Below, in pieces: positions 18,325-25,478 of a DNA stretch of 64,000 bases. The stretch is from a virus (lineage: Duplodnaviria; Caudoviricetes), in IMG/VR virus record IMGVR_UViG_2818991472_000001, positions 91,260-155,259 of that record, one strand, 5' to 3'. Numbering within the stretch: the stretch's first letter is position 1; the number at the start of each line of letters is the position of its first letter. The notes beneath the pieces were generated by a model. That model saw only the letters and a program-made list of their open reading frames with translations, made no database searches and was not told the origin of the DNA. The position numbers and the translations under genes were made by a program.

Positions 18325-19419
18325 GTGACCGCCACCGAGATCGTCGACGCCGAGCTGGTCGACGAGCAGCCGCCCGAGGCTCCGCCGCTGCGCGGGACCT
18401 CCCTCGTCGTCGCCGACGGCCGGGCTGGAACGCGCCCGGGTCTGTCCGACGCGGCCCGGCGCCGCCTGGAGCAGTCCACCCCGGAGGAGACGCGCCGCGC
18501 CTACCAGCGCGAGTGGAACCGGTTCTTCGCCTGGTGCTGGAAGAACGCCGTCCGGCCGCTGCCGTGCACCGACGACGACCTGTCCAACTGGGTGGCCGAG
18601 CGGTGTGATAGCAGCGACGGCATCTCCGCGATCCGGCAGGGCATCGGCGCCGTGGTGATGGCGCACGAGACCCGCTACGGAGTCGGCAAGGGGCCCAAGA
18701 CGAAGGAGAGTTGGCGCATCCTCTCCTCCTACAAGCGCGAGCGGTTCGACGCCGGGCACCGCGCCGACCAGGCCGCCACCTTCAACGCCGACCAGCTGCG
18801 CGAGATGCTGCTCACCATCCCGAACGACCACCCGGCCGGGGTCCGCGACCGGGCCCTGCTGTGCACCATGGTGGCGTCCATGAACCGGCGCAAAGCCTGG
18901 AACTCCCTGGACATCGAAGACGTGACCGAGGACGAGCTGGACCCCGAGTCGGCCGACCAGGAGCTGCTGGCCGACCTGCGGGCGTTCGTCGGCCGTTCCA
19001 AGACCGACCAGGCCGCCCGGGGGCGCACGGTCGTGATCCCGCCCGGCGAGCACGAGCTGTCGGACCCGGTGGGGAACCTGCAGGCGTGGCTGTGCGAGAT
19101 GGGCGTCCAGGGCGTCACCACCGGCCCGCTGTGGCGGCCTTTCAGCCGGGGCGGGCGCATCCTCGACCGGCGCCTGAACACCGACCACGCCCGCCTCCTG
19201 GTCCGCGACGCCGCTGCCCGCGCTGGGCTCAAGGCCCCGCACGGGCGCACGTTCAAGGCCCACTCCACCCGGGCCTCCGCCGTCCGCATCGCCCGCAAGG
19301 CTGGGAAGACCTGGTCGTCGATCGAGGAGCAGGGCGGCTGGGTGCCCGGCTCCACGGCTGCCAAGGGATACGACCGGCCGGAGGAGGAGGAGAACGCGAT
19401 GCGCGGAGCGGGCCTGTGA
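18325..19419 (+). CDS. Cre-like tyrosine recombinase/resolvase
   Basis: TRRAYQREW..F..WC, GVRDRALL...RR, RSKTDQ, AHSTRAS, QGGW...Y. Confidence 0.9.
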   Translation: MTATEIVDAELVDEQPPEAPPLRGTSLVVADGRAGTRPGLSDAARRRLEQSTPEETRRAYQREWNRFFAWCWKNAVRPLPCTDDDLSNWVAERCDSSDGISAIRQGIGAVVMAHETRYGVGKGPKTKESWRILSSYKRERFDAGHRADQAATFNADQLREMLLTIPNDHPAGVRDRALLCTMVASMNRRKAWNSLDIEDVTEDELDPESADQELLADLRAFVGRSKTDQAARGRTVVIPPGEHELSDPVGNLQAWLCEMGVQGVTTGPLWRPFSRGGRILDRRLNTDHARLLVRDAAARAGLKAPHGRTFKAHSTRASAVRIARKAGKTWSSIEEQGGWVPGSTAAKGYDRPEEEENAMRGAGL

Positions 19420-21020: not shown

Positions 21021-21971
21021 TCAGCGGGGGCTGGCGGTAGCGGCCACGGCGTCCCAGAAGTCGTTCATCCGGAAGTGGAAGAGGCCCATGCCGTGGTCGG
21101 TCCAGCTCCCGATCGGCTTGGTGATGATCTCGACGCCCTCCAGGGTCTCGGGGATGTAGCCGTTGCCCCAGCCGAAGTCGATGCGGGGGCGGCGGATGCC
21201 GTCGGGGTTGCCCTGGTCGGTGCGGATCAGGCTGGCGGTGCCCTGCAGCTCCTGGCCGAGGTGCTTGTGGGCGTGCAGGGCGAGGTCGGTGAACCCGGCC
21301 CGGGTCATGACGTCCCAGGGGCCGGTGTCGTGGCGGCCGTCGGCGGTGGTGCGGTTGGCCCGGAACGGCAGGTCGGTCACCACGTCCCAGTCCGGCAGGG
21401 TGGCGCGGTCGGCTTCGTCGCCGCTGTAGGAGTTCTGGTCGCCGAACCACAGGCAGGGGTAGGTGGTCTGGACGCGCTCGCCGAAGCGGTCGTCCGGGTC
21501 CTTGGGCCGCTGCTCGTTCTTGCCCCACTTGACCATCATGAGGGCCTCGCGGCGGCGCCACTCGGCGTCGTTCGAGCACAGGTGGTAGGAGGCGAGGTTG
21601 AGTTCGGGGCTGGCCTCGGTCCCGGCCCGGACGGTCTTGATCTGGCAGGCCGGGTGCCACCAGCCGGTCTCCTGCGGGTAGTCGGCGACCACGCGCAGCA
21701 GCTGCTCGTTGACGAAGATCCCGGGGGCGTTGGGGCTCTCCCGGGTGCTGGAGGCGGCGATGTAGCCGGTCATGCCGAGGGCGTGCCCGGCGGCGAAGAG
21801 CAGGCGCTTGCCGTTGGCGCGGGAGTGGGTCAGCTCCTGCCGGGCGATGGCGGCGATGCGGTACTTCCGCGTGAGCATGGCCAGGTAGGCGTGGGCCTCG
21901 CGCCAGTGCGCGGAGTTCTCGCCGCCGAAGTCGTGCTCACCGTTGAGGTTCACGAACGTGATCAAGGACAA
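21021..21971 (-). CDS. endonuclease/exonuclease/phosphatase (EEP) family protein
   Basis: TFVNL, RQE, SYHL, FGDQNS, GFTD, RIDF, TDH. Confidence 0.8.
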   Translation of the reverse strand: MSLITFVNLNGEHDFGGENSAHWREAHAYLAMLTRKYRIAAIARQELTHSRANGKRLLFAAGHALGMTGYIAASSTRESPNAPGIFVNEQLLRVVADYPQETGWWHPACQIKTVRAGTEASPELNLASYHLCSNDAEWRRREALMMVKWGKNEQRPKDPDDRFGERVQTTYPCLWFGDQNSYSGDEADRATLPDWDVVTDLPFRANRTTADGRHDTGPWDVMTRAGFTDLALHAHKHLGQELQGTASLIRTDQGNPDGIRRPRIDFGWGNGYIPETLEGVEIITKPIGSWTDHGMGLFHFRMNDFWDAVAATASPR

Positions 21972-22098
21972 GGTCAGGCCCCTCTTGGAGGTGAATCCCG
22001 GTGTGGTGGCCCTGTCCCGGCCGAACAGCTGAAGGTGATTTTCTGACCGATCAACCAGCTACTGTCATGGCTCGGCCGGGGCAGGGAGTCTCGGGTTC

Positions 22099-22138
22099 GT
22101 CGGAGGCCCGGGGGTTTCCGGCGCCTCGGGCCTCCGAC
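22099..22138. terminator. hairpin downstream of the radical SAM operon
   Basis: GTCGGAGGCCCG...CGGGCCTCCGAC. Confidence 0.5.
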
Positions 22139-22307
22139 AGGCGGGTGGGGGGAACCGCCTTGGTCCGCACGCGAGACCTACCGGGGAGCTGGGGTCTCAA
22201 GCGGTGCGGGCCGCCCCGTGCGGCAACCTGCGCGGGGCGTTCGTGGGTGGTGTGGGTGCCCCTTCCCGGCTGGGGCTGGTACTGCTACTACCGGGCCGGT
22301 CCGGCGG

Positions 22308-22631
22308 CTACTGGATGGCGCGGGCTCGTGCGGCGACCCCTTCCAGGTGCTCCTGGAAGATCTTGGGTGCGTCGGGGCCCGCGAGGGTGTACAGCGCGAC
22401 CATCCCGGTGAGGATGGTGTCGCCGATCTCCTTCTTGACGTCCTCCCACGTGTGGGTGATGCCCTTGCGGGGGTTTTGACCGAGGACTCCGCTGACGGCC
22501 TCGTGGACCTCGCCCACCTCCTCCCCGATCTTCATGATGCGGAGGAGGCGTTCCGTCTCGGGCGGCAGGGTGCTCTTGCCGTCGAGCCAGGCGACGAGAT
22601 CGCCGATGTGGTCCCAGGTCTGCTGTTCCAT
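22308..22631 (-). CDS. MazG-like NTP pyrophosphohydrolase
   Basis: KIGEEVGEVHEA...GQNPRKG...KEIGD (ExxE...ExxD). Confidence 0.85.
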   Translation of the reverse strand: MEQQTWDHIGDLVAWLDGKSTLPPETERLLRIMKIGEEVGEVHEAVSGVLGQNPRKGITHTWEDVKKEIGDTILTGMVALYTLAGPDAPKIFQEHLEGVAARARAIQ

Positions 22632-22665
22632 GCGTTGCGTCCGCTTCGGGTCGGGGCGCCGTCGC

Positions 22666-23508
22666 TCAGAACAGGGTGGTCTCCGGTTCGGGCTCCGGCG
22701 TGCTGGTCGGGTCGGAGACCGTGAGGTGCTGGTCCCCGGTCACGTCCACGCGCAGGGTCAGGCCCGAGTGGTCGGTGAGGTTTTTCTCGGTGCGGGGCTC
22801 GTGGACGTACGCACAGGAGTGTACGAGGCCGAGCAGGGGGGTGGAGACGAATGCGTGGTCGTAGCGGTAGCCGTCGTTGGTCCGTCCCACCCAGGAGTAC
22901 TCCTGGGCGCCGGGGTGCACGTGCCGGAAGGCGTCGTGGTAGCCGGTCTTGCCGAACCAGCGGTAGTAGTCGTACTCGAAGGGGCGGAAGATCGGGTAGC
23001 GGGGGCGGTGGTCGGGTTCCAGGATGTTGAGGTCGCCCATCACGATCCTGGGGGTGCCGGTGCCCTCGGGGGTGCGGTCCTGGCACTCGGCGATGAAGCG
23101 GGCCTTGCGCTCGGTCTTGGCGGCGGTGGCGTCCCTGGAGGGGACGTAGAGGCCGAGGATCTCCAGCGGGCCGTCGGTGGTGTGCACGGCGGTGGAGACG
23201 GCCCGGTAGGGCAGGTAGTCGAGCGTGACGGGCTGGTGCGCGGCGAGCCGGAGCCGGGAGACGATCATGACGCCGCGCTCGCCCTTGTCGGGAACGGGGT
23301 AGGCCACCTCGTAGCCTGCGCTCCGGAAGCGGTCGGCCAGGTAGGCGCAGCCGGGTCCGGGGGTGGTCTCGGTGAGGACGAAGACGTCCTCGGGGCGCTG
23401 GGCCAGCCAGGCGAGCTGGCGCTGTGCACGCTCCAGCGCCGGGCCGCCGATGTTGAAGGTGAGAAAGCTCAGGCCGGGTCGGGCCGGTGTCGCTGCCTCA
23501 GTTGCCAC
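22666..23508 (-). CDS. EEP/exonuclease III-like protein
   Basis: LTFNI, VLTET, GLYVPS, MGDLN, YDHAF, TDHS. Confidence 0.85.
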   Translation of the reverse strand: MATEAATPARPGLSFLTFNIGGPALERAQRQLAWLAQRPEDVFVLTETTPGPGCAYLADRFRSAGYEVAYPVPDKGERGVMIVSRLRLAAHQPVTLDYLPYRAVSTAVHTTDGPLEILGLYVPSRDATAAKTERKARFIAECQDRTPEGTGTPRIVMGDLNILEPDHRPRYPIFRPFEYDYYRWFGKTGYHDAFRHVHPGAQEYSWVGRTNDGYRYDHAFVSTPLLGLVHSCAYVHEPRTEKNLTDHSGLTLRVDVTGDQHLTVSDPTSTPEPEPETTLF

Positions 23509-24127
23509 TGGTTCCCCTCCGCAGGGTGCCGATCCTGGAGACGATGATGTCGGCGACCCGCTCAGGGCTGCGGTTGGTGCAGTCGATGATCAGGGTGGGG
23601 TAGCCGACCTTTTCCAGGAAGGTAGCGGCTTCCTCATAGAGGGCGGCTTCCTTACGGCTGCTTCCGGGCATCTTCTCGAAGCGGCTGTGGGTGCCCCGGG
23701 CGGTCAGCCGGGCGTGGATGACCTCGGGGTCGGCGGTGAGCACGACGGTCAGGTCCGGGGTGATGGCGTGCTGGTTGATGGCCCAGATCGTCGTGGGGTC
23801 GATGCCGTCGAGCCGCTGCAGCACCAGGGAGGAGCCCACGTAGCGGTCGCACAGGACGGTGTCGCCGCGTTCGAGGGCGGGGGTGATCTCGGTGGCGATG
23901 TGGTGGTAACGGTCGGCGGCGACGAGGCAGGCCAGCGACATGCCGGTGTAGGTCTCGGTGCCGTGCCGGGCGATCTCGCCGAGGTTGGCCCGGGAGGGTT
24001 CGGTGGTGGCGTGGACTGCCGTTCCGGCTGTGGTCAGGAGGTGGCCGACGGCGGCGACGGTGGTGGACTTGCCGACGCCGCCGGGGCCGTCGAAGGCGAC
24101 AAACAGGCCGCGCTCGGTGTCGCTCAC
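23498..24127 (-). CDS. tmk: thymidylate kinase-like protein
   Basis: FVAFDGPGGVGKST, TTEPS, AADR, VLCDRY..SS, PDL. Confidence 0.85.
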   Translation of the reverse strand: MSDTERGLFVAFDGPGGVGKSTTVAAVGHLLTTAGTAVHATTEPSRANLGEIARHGTETYTGMSLACLVAADRYHHIATEITPALERGDTVLCDRYVGSSLVLQRLDGIDPTTIWAINQHAITPDLTVVLTADPEVIHARLTARGTHSRFEKMPGSSRKEAALYEEAATFLEKVGYPTLIIDCTNRSPERVADIIVSRIGTLRRGTSGN

Positions 24128-25242
24128 GAGACGGCCACCACGGGCAGCAGGGCGCGCTTGTTCGGGGCGACGGGGCACATCTCGGCGTCGAGGGCGCCGA
24201 TGCGCTCCCCGGCGGCGACCACGGCGGCCGGGCATCCCTTGCCGCAGCCGTCTGCCATCGAGCAGCTGCCGCAGGTGGGGTTGGCTCCGACGGTGTACCG
24301 CTCGTGGAAGTTGTAGGCGTCCAGGCGGTCGGCGATGTCGGTGTCGGTGAAGATGTTGCCGACGATGAACTCGGTGTCGGCGTGCTGGGAATTCGGGGTC
24401 CGGGCGGCGAAGACGAGGTAGGGGCAGACGGTGACCTCGCCCGGGGCGAAGACGTAGATGATCGTCCCGGCCTCGCAGTTCGCGAGGGGTTTGGTGTCGT
24501 TGGGGAAGCGGATGTGGACCAGGTCGAGCTGGTCGCTGGCGAACGGGGAGGTGAGGTCGTGGATGTGCCGCATGTGGTCGTCCGACCGGGCGAGCTTGTT
24601 CTTGCTCTTGACGCCGCGCCCCATGCTGGAGAGCGGGTTCATCAGGACGTAGGAGGCGCCCTGCTCGCTGGCGAAGGCGCACAGCTGGGCGTACTCCTCG
24701 TCCTCGGCAAGGTTGTTCGGGGTGCAGAGCAGGCCCTGCAGGAGCCCGGCCTGGGCCAGCCGCTTCACCGTCTCCACGGTGGTGTAGAACGACTCGCGGT
24801 CGCCCCGGAACTTGCCGTGGGAGTCGGCGGCGAAGCCGTCCAGGCTGACGTTCACGTGGATGTCGCCCATCTTGGCCAGGGCCGTGATGTGGTCGTCCGT
24901 GATCAGGGTGGCGTTGGTGCACAGTCCCACGCCCATGCCCGCGTCGCGGAAGGCGGCGGTGACGGCGAGGAAGTCGGGGTGCAGGAACGGCTCTCCGCCG
25001 GTGAGGGTCACCCGGGTGACCCGGGCCGCCTTCAGCTGGGGGATGACCTTGGTCCGGATGTCCTCCAGCGGCATCGTCACGCCGGTCTTGAGGGCGCTGA
25101 CGAAGCAGTGGGCGCAGCCGAGGTTGCAGGGCTCGTTGATTTGGACGAGCGCCTTGCGGTAGGGCTCCACGACGGAGGTCCGGAAGTAGCAGGACACGGC
25201 CTGCTCGTCCGTCATGATCCGGCGTGCTGTCTTCTCGCTCAT
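24124..25242 (-). CDS. radical SAM/SPASM domain protein
   Basis: CNLGCAHC, TGGEP, VSLDG; SPASM CEAG...CPY...CGSC...CGKGC...C. Confidence 0.9.
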   Translation of the reverse strand: MSEKTARRIMTDEQAVSCYFRTSVVEPYRKALVQINEPCNLGCAHCFVSALKTGVTMPLEDIRTKVIPQLKAARVTRVTLTGGEPFLHPDFLAVTAAFRDAGMGVGLCTNATLITDDHITALAKMGDIHVNVSLDGFAADSHGKFRGDRESFYTTVETVKRLAQAGLLQGLLCTPNNLAEDEEYAQLCAFASEQGASYVLMNPLSSMGRGVKSKNKLARSDDHMRHIHDLTSPFASDQLDLVHIRFPNDTKPLANCEAGTIIYVFAPGEVTVCPYLVFAARTPNSQHADTEFIVGNIFTDTDIADRLDAYNFHERYTVGANPTCGSCSMADGCGKGCPAAVVAAGERIGALDAEMCPVAPNKRALLPVVAVS

Positions 25243-25478
25243 GGGTGTCCCCCATCAGGCCGGAGGCACTGCTGCGCCCCGTGGTGGCGGGGCGTCTCGG
25301 TGCTTGGGCCGTGCGTCGAGGTGGTCAGCGGGGACCGGGCCCGTCTGGCGCCCGGTTGCTTGCGGTGACCACTTCATCACTGGATCAACCATCCTGACAA
25401 GAAGGCGAGTTGAATAAATGTCAGTTACTTACGACTGGCATGTGCTGCTGGCATGTTTCCGCAGCTCGCCGGACAAGT

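What the first reader, a model, noticed from the sequence alone, without database searches (positions are those of the whole stretch)
21021..25242. Radical SAM + thymidylate kinase + EEP nuclease + MazG operon: candidate modified-nucleotide pathway
Seen: four tightly linked genes (rSAM/SPASM, dTMP-kinase-like, ExoIII-like, MazG-like), then a second EEP gene. Knowledge: phage base-modification pathways pair a base-modifying enzyme with a kinase and a pyrophosphatase that removes the normal dNTP, and prokaryotic viperins pair an rSAM with a nucleotide kinase. This rSAM has a SPASM domain, unlike viperin. Inference: it makes an unusual nucleotide, either for incorporation by the element's DnaE (anti-restriction) or as an antiviral, with EEP/MazG for repair or self-protection.
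Basis: partly seen in the sequence, partly recalled or inferred. Interest (0 to 1): 0.75.

Follow-up and report, generated by a model that had tools for sequence, protein, structure and literature searches.

The report
Mobile radical-SAM nucleotide-analogue gene cassette
Four tightly packed genes on a Streptomyces plasmid form a rare, mobile cassette that keeps the same order in many actinomycetes and most likely makes a toxic, thymidine-like DNA building-block analogue while protecting its own cell from it, a layout so far proven for only one natural antibiotic.

Summary
The four-gene operon is real (22308-25242, minus strand). It encodes a radical SAM enzyme with a full SPASM motif, a dTMP-kinase paralogue, an exonuclease-III-like nuclease and a small MazG-like pyrophosphatase. 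The "second EEP" (21021-21971) is a separate, unconserved near-orphan and is only weakly supported.

The order rSAM-Tmk-nuclease holds in all 27 orthologous loci examined. The fourth gene is MazG-like in Streptomycetaceae and Catenulispora and NUDIX in Pseudonocardiales. More distant rSAM relatives (35-52% identity, GC 25-66%) again sit beside Tmk, the same nuclease, HAD, CYTH or HD phosphohydrolases.

I found no conserved precursor peptide and no room for a peptide-recognition domain. The element's DnaE does not travel with the cassette. The kinase subfamily has lost both aromatic residues of the thymidine pocket.

A sister cassette on 12 Streptomyces plasmids, one Kitasatospora plasmid and temperate phage SF3 uses a B12-rSAM and an AlkA-like glycosylase with the same kinase and pyrophosphatase.

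The closest characterised system is thmABC, the 4'-thiothymidine cluster of Photorhabdus (PMC12691670). I could not test homology to it.

Best reading (about 0.5): a toxic nucleotide analogue is made, and the cell is protected at pool level and at DNA level. The product and the target are unknown. This scan had noted the same module before, on other DNA (e1-1000797).

The parts
24124..25242 (-). Radical SAM enzyme with SPASM domain (372 aa), first gene of the operon. It belongs to an uncharacterised family.
   Evidence: PF04055 at 76 bits. The best NCBIfam hits are all SPASM or twitch enzymes and all fall far below their cut-offs. Thirteen cysteines are invariant, including C39/C43/C46 and the seven-Cys SPASM set C256, C273, C324, C327, C333, C337, C356. 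Foldseek places the model nearest SuiB, SkfB, BlsE, PqqE, MoaA and viperin. A Shine-Dalgarno-like GGGGGA lies upstream of the start.
23498..24127 (-). dTMP-kinase paralogue (209 aa) with a remodelled nucleoside pocket; translationally coupled to the rSAM gene.
   Evidence: GTGA start/stop overlap. TIGR00041 at 106 bits, cut-off 83. The P-loop, DRY motif and LID arginines are present. The two pocket aromatics are replaced by V/I/C and L in all cassette kinases, whereas the same genome's housekeeping Tmk keeps Y and Y.
22666..23508 (-). Exonuclease-III / APE1-like EEP nuclease (280 aa). In actinomycetes it carries a C-terminal tail that ends in an invariant LF.
   Evidence: PF03372. TIGR00633 aligns over its full length but scores below the cut-off. 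AlphaFold model with pLDDT 90.5. The top 40+ Foldseek hits are nearly all ExoIII, NExo, APE1 and Mth0212, with the ExoIII-fold regulator Crc and LINE-1 endonuclease among them. A profile search of the PDB aligns the N, E, GDxN, SW, RxD and DH motifs. The tail is described.
22308..22631 (-). Small MazG-like all-alpha NTP pyrophosphohydrolase (107 aa), last gene of the operon.
   Evidence: PF03819 at 17.6 bits, below the cut-off; the L003 orthologue scores 22.9, at or above the cut-off of 22. The EExGE and ExxD motifs are conserved in 12 orthologues. In 13 Pseudonocardiales loci a NUDIX gene (PF00293) takes its place.
22099..22239 (-). Two GC-rich inverted repeats downstream of the MazG-like gene; probably the end of the operon.
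   Evidence: Inverted repeats at 22099-22138 (15-nt arms, 93% complementary) and 22212-22239. The consensus scan found no T-tract terminator.
25243..25417 (.). 175-nt divergent intergenic region upstream of the rSAM gene. It presumably holds the promoter and contains no conserved peptide gene.
   Evidence: The 45-aa ORF at 25255-25392 has no counterpart in the other 27 loci. No Rfam family matches.
21021..21971 (-). Neighbouring orphan gene (316 aa), possibly a very divergent EEP. It is not part of the conserved cassette.
   Evidence: No family hit. Its only homologue (47% identity, Kitasatospora) carries PF03372. hhalign against the cassette EEP gives probability 0.4%. It is absent from all other loci.

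Best explanation
The operon 22308-25242 is an autonomous, horizontally mobile cassette. I read it as making a non-canonical, probably thymidine-like, (deoxy)nucleotide or nucleoside and shielding its own cell from that product.

Proposed mechanism (all steps inferred):
1. The SPASM radical SAM enzyme performs the radical chemistry on a nucleotide.
2. The Tmk paralogue has lost the aromatic residues that stack on thymine and gate the 2' position. It either supplies the phosphorylated substrate or phosphorylates the altered nucleotide.
3. The MazG-like pyrophosphatase (NUDIX in other lineages) hydrolyses the analogue triphosphate. This keeps it out of the cell's own DNA and returns it to the monophosphate or nucleoside.
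4. The exonuclease-III-like nuclease clears what is nevertheless incorporated, either by 3'-end trimming or by incision.

The product would serve chemical warfare, as a released nucleoside antibiotic or as an intracellular antiviral. My evidence does not separate those two roles.

Shown here: gene identities, operon structure, conservation, swapping of partner genes, mobility and rarity. Not shown: the chemistry, the product and the target.
For: 1. Order rSAM-Tmk-EEP is kept in 27 of 27 loci from Streptomyces, Embleya, Catenulispora, Pseudonocardiales and Aeromicrobium, with coupled starts.
2. The fourth gene is MazG-like in 12 loci and NUDIX in 13. Two unrelated NTP pyrophosphatase folds fill the same slot.
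3. Relatives of the rSAM at 35-52% identity, in DNA of 25-66% GC, again sit beside Tmk and the same EEP (P0121, P0135, P0136, P0137). Others sit beside HAD, a CYTH/CyaB-like protein, an HD hydrolase or an Endo-IV-like protein.
4. All cassette kinases replace the two pocket aromatics. The genome's own Tmk keeps them.
5. The EEP belongs to the DNA-acting ExoIII/APE1 clade by sequence and by fold.
6. A sister cassette carries an AlkA-like glycosylase, a B12-rSAM, the same Tmk subfamily and MazG or NUDIX. It is on 12 Streptomyces plasmids, one Kitasatospora plasmid and, next to the integrase, phage SF3.
7. The cassette is rare (7 of 401 Streptomycetaceae species genomes, three of them truncated or broken) and its flanks differ from locus to locus.
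8. Experimental precedent: thmABC (rSAM + kinase + NTPase, variable flanks) makes 4'-thiothymidine. That compound is incorporated into DNA, and the NTPase alone confers self-resistance (PMC12691670).
Against: No data touch a product, the nucleotide pools or DNA.

Homology to ThmA, ThmB and ThmC could not be tested. ThmB is a deoxycytidine-kinase-like enzyme (PMC9032320), not a Tmk.

The rSAM's nearest sequence and fold relatives are mostly peptide maturases. SPASM enzymes that act on free nucleotides are uncommon.

The pyrophosphatase is missing from some distant versions, so it is not essential to the core.

No exporter is encoded.

The flanks of the actinomycete loci give no consistent defence-island or biosynthetic signal.

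The window's MazG-like protein is below Pfam's cut-off, and the EEP is below the xth cut-off.
Confidence: 0.5

Rival explanations
1. Pre-replicative base replacement. The cassette converts a canonical dNMP into a modified one, phosphorylates it and depletes the canonical dNTP. The plasmid's DNA, or the host's, then carries a modified base that blocks restriction. This is the T4 / SPO1 logic and the first reader's first option.
For: A modifying enzyme, an NMP kinase with an altered pocket and a dNTP pyrophosphatase together match the phage scheme. The cassettes sit on plasmids and on a temperate phage. The window's element has its own DnaE, DnaB and primase.
Against: No replication gene accompanies any other copy. 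Many copies are chromosomal, several of them under a divergent LysR regulator. Pool-level replacement would alter the whole host genome. A partner that excises or incises DNA fits badly with a wanted modification.
Confidence: 0.12
2. Repair and sanitation cassette. No new nucleotide is made. Instead the rSAM reverses or processes a damaged thymidine nucleotide or a DNA lesion, as spore photoproduct lyase does. The nuclease, kinase and pyrophosphatase excise, salvage and clean up.
For: The ExoIII-like enzyme, the AlkA-like glycosylase of the sister cassette, and MutT-like NUDIX and MazG proteins are all classical repair or house-cleaning families. Many carriers are spore-forming actinomycetes. 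LysR control would suit a stress response.
Against: The cassette is rare, mobile and often decayed, which is unlike a housekeeping repair function. The rSAM is unrelated to spore photoproduct lyase and carries two auxiliary clusters. The kinase has lost thymine-recognising residues. Low-GC, non-sporulating carriers exist.
Confidence: 0.12
3. Nucleotide-sugar tailoring. The kinase feeds dTDP or dTTP, and the rSAM alters a dTDP-linked sugar, as DesII does. NUDIX cleaves the NDP-sugar. The product is a cell-surface or natural-product sugar.
For: DesII and BlsE appear among the fold and sequence matches. One distant relative (P0125) sits next to a sugar-phosphate nucleotidyltransferase-like gene and an HD hydrolase. 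NUDIX enzymes often act on NDP-X compounds.
Against: The 27 core loci contain no nucleotidyltransferase, glycosyltransferase or sugar enzyme. MazG acts on NTPs, not on NDP-sugars. A DNA-type ExoIII nuclease has no role in this scheme.
Confidence: 0.07
4. Peptide or cofactor maturation. The SPASM enzyme modifies a ribosomal peptide, for example the small ORF at 25255-25392, or a cofactor. The nucleotide genes are merely neighbours.
For: The best family and fold matches are MftC, SkfB, SuiB, PqqE, StsB and PapB.
Against: No small ORF is conserved upstream in 28 loci. There is no room for a peptide-recognition domain and no PqqD-like partner. The linkage to Tmk and EEP persists down to 38% rSAM identity and across phyla. 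All family scores are far below their cut-offs.
Confidence: 0.04

Closest known systems
thmABC, the 4'-thiothymidine cluster of Photorhabdus asymbiotica (PMC12691670)
   Same: It is a minimal autonomous cluster of a radical SAM enzyme, a P-loop nucleoside or nucleotide kinase and an NTP hydrolase. Its flanks differ between species. The product is a thymidine analogue that enters DNA, and the NTPase alone gives self-resistance.
   Different: ThmB resembles a deoxycytidine kinase, not Tmk. B12 in the expression medium suggests that ThmA is a B12-rSAM, which would be closer to the sister cassette than to this SPASM enzyme; that is my inference. thmABC has no nuclease. Sequence homology is untested, and the product of this cassette is unknown.
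Prokaryotic viperins (pVips) with associated nucleotide kinases
   Same: A radical SAM enzyme next to an NMP kinase, thought to make a chain-terminating nucleotide. The cassette kinase weakly matches PADLOC VakA, and the rSAM core matches pVip models.
   Different: Only the N-terminal rSAM core matches. NF038283 scores 52.7 bits against a cut-off of 180. This enzyme has a SPASM domain with two auxiliary clusters where viperin has its own C-terminal domain. It also has nuclease and pyrophosphatase partners.
OxsB/OxsA (oxetanocin A) and AlsB/AlsA (albucidin); named from my own knowledge, with PMC7074753 only listed
   Same: A radical SAM enzyme acts on a phosphorylated deoxynucleotide, a phosphohydrolase trims the phosphates, and the genes are plasmid-borne or form very small clusters.
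   Different: Those rSAMs are B12-dependent and their partner is an HD hydrolase. They have no kinase and no nuclease. No sequence comparison was made here.
Phage pre-replicative base-replacement pathways (T4 gp42, gp1 and gp56; SPO1 and PBS2 dTTPase and dTMPase; from my own knowledge)
   Same: They combine a nucleotide-modifying enzyme, a dedicated dNMP kinase and a dNTP pyrophosphatase.
   Different: Those pathways use folate-dependent hydroxymethylases in lytic phages that replace a base completely. Here the enzyme is an rSAM, the cassette is often chromosomal, and it is coupled to a DNA-excision-type enzyme.
Exonuclease III / APE1 / Mth0212 family
   Same: The fold, the catalytic residues and the conserved SW motif all match.
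   Different: The score is below the xth equivalog cut-off (68.9 against 99). The gene always sits inside the rSAM operon. Actinomycete members carry a C-terminal linker that ends in LF.

Membership tests
Radical SAM superfamily (PF04055) | CX3CX2C cluster motif and a partial TIM-barrel core | tested here: met
   CNLGCAHC at residues 39-46. PF04055 at 76.3 bits against a cut-off of 29.5. The modelled core matches rSAM structures.
SPASM subgroup of radical SAM enzymes | C-terminal seven-cysteine motif, CX9-15GX4C ... CX2CX5CX3C ... C, that binds two auxiliary clusters | tested here: met
   C256, G268-X4-C273, C324-X2-C327-X5-C333-X3-C337 and C356 are invariant in 22 sequences. The spacing C256-X16-C273 is one residue longer than the textbook range. 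Pfam PF13186 itself did not score for the window protein and is on record only faintly for a relative.
Viperin / pVip | Score at the NF038283 equivalog cut-off, and the viperin C-terminal nucleotide-binding domain | tested here: not met
   52.7 bits against a cut-off of 180. Only residues 35-161 align. The PADLOC pVip models match only the N-terminal core.
dTMP kinase (TIGR00041 / PF02223) | Family score, P-loop, DR(Y/H) motif and LID arginines | tested here: met
   106.2 bits against a cut-off of 83.25. The motifs GPGGVGKST, CDRYV and RLTARGTHSRFE are present.
dTMP kinase (TIGR00041 / PF02223) | An aromatic residue that stacks on thymine, and the Tyr next to the 2' position (S. aureus F66 and Y100; residue roles from my own knowledge) | tested here: not met
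   V/I/C and L occupy these positions in all 28 cassette kinases and in 6 distant or sister-cassette kinases. The housekeeping Tmk of the same genome has Y and Y.
Exodeoxyribonuclease III (TIGR00633 xth) | Equivalog score; catalytic N, E, D, N, D, H residues; ExoIII fold | tested here: inconclusive
   The score of 68.9 is below the cut-off of 99.05. All catalytic motifs align, and the top Foldseek hits are ExoIII, NExo and APE1 at TM about 0.7. Activity was not tested.
MazG-type NTP pyrophosphohydrolase (PF03819) | Family score and the EExxE ... ExxD metal-binding motifs | tested here: inconclusive
   The window protein scores 17.6, below the cut-off of 22. The L003 orthologue scores 22.9. The motifs are conserved in 12 orthologues. 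The PDB matches are only weak.
thmABC-type nucleoside-analogue cluster | Adjacent rSAM, nucleoside or nucleotide kinase and NTP hydrolase, moving as an autonomous unit with variable flanks | tested here: met
   for this cassette. The description of thmABC is in PMC12691670.
thmABC-type nucleoside-analogue cluster | Sequence homology to ThmA, ThmB and ThmC, and a thionucleoside product | not testable with these tools
   The Photorhabdus sequences could not be reached.
RiPP maturase system | A conserved precursor peptide gene and a peptide-recognition (RRE / PqqD-like) element | tested here: not met
   No conserved small ORF lies within 400 nt upstream in 28 loci. The N-terminus before the cluster motif has only about 36 residues. 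The flank survey turned up no PqqD-like partner: it is not among the conserved gene clusters nor among the recurrent Pfam families, of which only the top 25 of 127 were listed.

The most novel reading that the evidence does not exclude
The SPASM radical SAM family makes a DNA-incorporable nucleotide analogue of a kind not yet described. The exonuclease-III-like partner is a dedicated analogue-excision nuclease, which in actinomycetes may be docked to the replisome through its invariant C-terminal LF tail. Together with the pyrophosphatase it would give two layers of immunity, one at the nucleotide pool and one at the DNA. The producer's replication would then survive a poison that stalls the replication of a competitor or a phage.
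Probability: 0.2. Interest if true: 0.85.

Novelty: new variant of a known kind. Interest (0 to 1): 0.62.

Why it matters
Natural nucleoside analogues are a proven source of antiviral, anticancer and antibacterial drugs. Only one rSAM-kinase-NTPase mini-cluster has been tied to a product so far, and that was in 2025.

This cassette is built around a different, uncharacterised SPASM enzyme family, one with relatives in DNA of 25-72% GC. It adds a DNA-level partner, an ExoIII-like nuclease, which is an AlkA-like glycosylase in the sister cassette. That points to an unstudied form of self-resistance by excision.

The cassette is four genes and about 2.9 kb, so it is directly testable by expression and mass spectrometry. 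A positive result would give new radical chemistry on nucleotides, a new bioactive nucleoside, and resistance genes that predict how such drugs fail.

Tried and rejected
- RiPP reading: I searched 400 nt upstream of the rSAM in 28 loci for a conserved small ORF and found none.
- Riboswitch or other RNA leader: Rfam gave nothing relevant in the window or in eight Pseudonocardiales loci.
- Known defence system: PADLOC gave only weak pVip-core, VakA and PDC-M51B matches.
- DnaE linkage: no homologue of the window's replication genes lies near any other copy.
- Defence-island or BGC context: 131 flanking ORFs from 25 loci hit 127 different Pfam families; LysR was the commonest (7 ORFs), and several HTH and TPR families recurred 2-4 times.
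- Second EEP as a paralogue of the first: BLASTP and hhalign were negative.
- Homology to ThmA-C: the supplement holds no accession numbers. My attempt to reach Enterobacterales genomes through a metagenome-assembled genome labelled Enterobacterales landed in an unrelated order rich in B12-rSAMs, and I discarded it. The AbmG and AbmM papers are not held.
- Fold of the rSAM: the model is only moderate (pLDDT 66) and its matches do not discriminate a substrate.
- Atlas search: only unnamed clusters came back.
- Literature: five term combinations found no paper on this cassette.

Full report
**What is there.**
- The window has about 70% GC. It is the last 64 kb of a 155-kb contig of a 10-Mb Streptomycetaceae genome.
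- That contig carries its own DnaE, DnaB-like helicase, primase-like gene, RecA and DinG-like helicase. It is therefore plasmid-like.
- Codon-position GC and ORF calls define four minus-strand genes between 22308 and 25242.
- Gene 1 is a 372-aa radical SAM enzyme. It has PF04055 and the motif CNLGCAHC.
- Gene 2 is a 209-aa dTMP-kinase paralogue. Its GTG start overlaps the rSAM stop as GTGA.
- Gene 3 is a 280-aa EEP protein. It overlaps tmk by 11 nt and has a good ribosome-binding site.
- Gene 4 is a 107-aa MazG-like protein, 34 nt further on.

**The second EEP.**
- It has no Pfam, NCBIfam, PHROG or PADLOC hit.
- It shows no BLASTP or profile similarity to the first EEP.
- Its single homologue among 5.8 billion proteins does carry PF03372.
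- By eye it has NGE, QE, GDxN, RIDF and DH motifs, so the call is plausible.
- The gene is an orphan neighbour and not part of the system. It is absent from all other loci.

**Conservation.**
- The rSAM family is tight. At least 120 clusters at 90% identity share 66-81% identity with the query, and almost all of those named by a source are actinomycete.
- In the species-genome scan, identity drops sharply from 60% to about 30%.
- In 27 of 27 orthologous loci the order rSAM-Tmk-EEP is kept. These include a 336-kb linear Streptomyces plasmid, an Embleya replicon, Streptomyces chromosomes, Catenulispora, many Pseudonocardiales and an Aeromicrobium MAG.
- The fourth gene is MazG-like in 12 loci, from Streptomycetaceae and Catenulispora. 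In 13 Pseudonocardiales loci it is a NUDIX hydrolase with a canonical Nudix box.
- Two unrelated pyrophosphatase folds in the same slot are strong evidence that a nucleoside triphosphate is handled.
- Flanks are otherwise unrelated. A survey of 131 flanking ORFs hit 127 Pfam families.
- The commonest flank family was the LysR HTH (7 ORFs), from a divergent LysR-type regulator in eight Pseudonocardiales loci; a few other HTH and TPR families recurred 2-4 times.
- None of the window's replication genes is near any other copy.
- Only 7 of 401 Streptomycetaceae species genomes have the rSAM, and three of those copies are truncated or interrupted.
- The cassette is therefore a rare, self-contained, mobile unit.

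**Wider family.** The 50%-identity representatives include full-length relatives at 35-52% identity. Their contigs range from 25% to 66% GC.

| Relative | Identity | Neighbours |
|---|---|---|
| P0121 | 52% | rSAM-Tmk with a convergent EEP, near a Lit-like peptidase and a DUF4365 gene |
| P0135 | 42% | rSAM-Tmk-EEP |
| P0136 | 38% | Tmk-HAD, divergent from rSAM-EEP; an HD/dGTPase-like gene is nearby |
| P0137 | 41% | rSAM-EEP |
| P0154 | 35% | rSAM, a 256-aa gene, HAD |
| P0124 | 47% | HAD-rSAM-CYTH (class IV cyclase-like), between transposases |
| P0125 | 45% | HD-rSAM-nucleotidyltransferase-like |
| P0160 | 35% | Endo-IV-like gene (nfo at 48 bits, below cut-off), divergent from the rSAM |

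The enzyme thus keeps company with nucleotide phosphate-handling enzymes and with DNA 3'-end or AP-type nucleases. It never has a recognisable peptide partner.

**The individual proteins.**
- The rSAM has 13 invariant cysteines. They comprise the SAM cluster, a complete seven-Cys SPASM set and three extra cysteines (C18, C108, C173).
- Every named NCBIfam hit for the rSAM is far below its cut-off.
- The rSAM model is moderate (pLDDT 66). It resembles SuiB, SkfB, BlsE, PqqE, MoaA and viperin about equally, so the fold does not reveal the substrate.
- The kinase passes the dTMP-kinase equivalog cut-off. It is nevertheless a second copy that scores far below the genome's housekeeping Tmk (106 against 177 bits).
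- All 28 cassette kinases, and those of distant and sister cassettes, carry V/I/C and L where canonical enzymes have aromatic residues. In canonical enzymes, including the same genome's housekeeping copy, one aromatic stacks on thymine and one flanks the 2' position.
- I infer that the kinase's preferred substrate is not plain dTMP.
- The EEP models with high confidence (pLDDT 90.5).
- Its best 40+ structural matches are nearly all ExoIII, the 3'-phosphatase NExo, APE1 and Mth0212, plus a few Crc and LINE-1 endonuclease chains.
- All of its catalytic motifs and the family's SW motif align.
- All actinomycete EEP copies end in a variable linker of about 25 residues followed by an invariant [T/A]LF at the carboxy terminus. 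Non-actinomycete homologues lack this tail.
- The tail looks like a docking motif, perhaps for the sliding clamp. The complex predictor was not available for this window, so this remains a guess.

**A sister cassette.**
- DNA similarity of the tmk gene led to other Streptomyces plasmids.
- There, the same kinase subfamily (231 bits to the cassette profile) and a MazG-like or NUDIX gene follow an unrelated B12-binding rSAM of about 500 aa.
- A 275-aa protein precedes that rSAM.
- A profile of the 275-aa protein matches AlkA-type 3-methyladenine DNA glycosylases. The match includes the helix-hairpin-helix and the catalytic Asp (E = 9e-7).
- The same four genes are gp35-gp38 of temperate Streptomyces phage SF3, next to its integrase.
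- At least 13 plasmids carry this version.
- In both cassettes, a radical SAM enzyme and a base-excision-type DNA enzyme are combined with one shared kinase-plus-pyrophosphatase module.

**Comparison with what is known.**
- Five literature searches on the gene combination found nothing.
- One further search found thmABC of Photorhabdus asymbiotica (PMC12691670). It consists of a radical SAM enzyme, an AbmG-like nucleoside kinase and an NTPase.
- The three genes co-occur with flanks that differ in every species, and in E. coli they suffice to make 4'-thiothymidine.
- The compound is activated by salvage, incorporated into DNA, blocks replication and triggers SOS.
- ThmC alone raises the MIC from 0.125 to above 128 ug/mL.
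- This is the only characterised system with the same layout and the same genomic behaviour.
- It also gives every gene here a role: synthesis (rSAM, kinase), pool-level immunity (MazG or NUDIX) and, new here, DNA-level immunity (the ExoIII-like nuclease, or the AlkA-like glycosylase in the sister cassette).
- The vitamin B12 in their expression medium suggests that ThmA is a B12 enzyme. That would put thmABC nearer the sister cassette; this is my inference.
- I could not obtain the Thm sequences, so homology is untested.
- The cassette is not a viperin system, because the equivalog score and the C-terminal domain both fail.

**Verdict.**
- The nucleotide interpretation is well supported by comparative genomics. 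The DnaE-incorporation idea and the peptide alternative are not.
- The most likely function (about 0.5) is production of a toxic thymidine-like analogue with two layers of self-protection.
- Whether the analogue is aimed at competing bacteria or at phages is open.
- Base replacement, repair and nucleotide-sugar tailoring remain possible at about 0.1 each.
- Earlier notes of this scan describe the same rSAM-Tmk-ExoIII module in another genome (e1-1000797) and relate similar cassettes to thmABC (e1-4575763, e1-3909465).
- A later check of a related cluster priced the DNA-modification reading low (e1-2163810). I followed that caution.

Noticed in passing
L083:4982-8259, L084:4303-7691, L085:3697-7070 (phage SF3 gp35-gp38), L105, L106, L107: A sister cassette: AlkA-like HhH-GPD glycosylase, B12-binding radical SAM enzyme, the same Tmk subfamily, then MazG-like or NUDIX. 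It is on at least 13 plasmids (12 Streptomyces, 1 Kitasatospora). In temperate phage SF3 it lies next to the integrase.
   Followed up: partly
window:22666-22750 (C-terminus of the EEP) and the orthologues in L001-L027: Every actinomycete copy of the ExoIII-like protein ends in a variable linker and an invariant [T/A]LF carboxy terminus. Low-GC and marine homologues lack the tail. It may be a docking motif, for the sliding clamp or something else. I could not test it.
   Followed up: partly
window:33523-37080 (-): A 1185-aa protein with an N-terminal GNAT acetyltransferase hit, a C-terminal 2'-5' RNA ligase / LigT phosphoesterase hit, and about 900 unassigned residues between them.
   Followed up: no
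window:45524-62455 (-): A replication and recombination block: RecA, DnaE (1276 aa), a 362-aa gene without any hit that overlaps the DnaE start, a primase-like gene, a DnaB-like helicase and a DinG-like helicase. The contig looks like a large plasmid with its own replisome genes.
   Followed up: no
window:18214-18279: A near-perfect palindrome that scores on both strands as plant or insect microRNA families in Rfam, which is a chance effect of the hairpin. It lies just upstream of a weak tyrosine-recombinase-like gene (18325-19419).
   Followed up: no
window:28594-29739 (-): A 381-aa protein with strong matches to two phage protein families of unknown function (phrog_15500 at 1.5e-50, phrog_2433 at 2.7e-40) and no Pfam hit.
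   Followed up: no
L019:7742-7930, and the corresponding places in L021 and L022 upstream of the rSAM: A small protein of about 60 aa with a CxxC...HAC..C pattern (zinc-ribbon-like), conserved upstream of the cassette in three Streptomyces loci. XRE-type and HATPase_c_2 regulator genes lie beside it.
   Followed up: no
G120:C1:4692755-4693522 and G120:C1:4795219-4795986: One Streptomycetaceae genome holds two identical truncated copies of the rSAM (residues 4-259), in opposite orientation and about 100 kb apart. This suggests a large inverted duplication with a decayed cassette.
   Followed up: no
L009-L012, L015, L025, about 100-200 nt upstream of the rSAM: The LysR-rSAM intergenic region of Pseudonocardiales loci contains a stretch conserved at the DNA level; it appears as similar 'peptides' in several reading frames. 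It may be an operator or a leader. No Rfam family matches it.
   Followed up: partly
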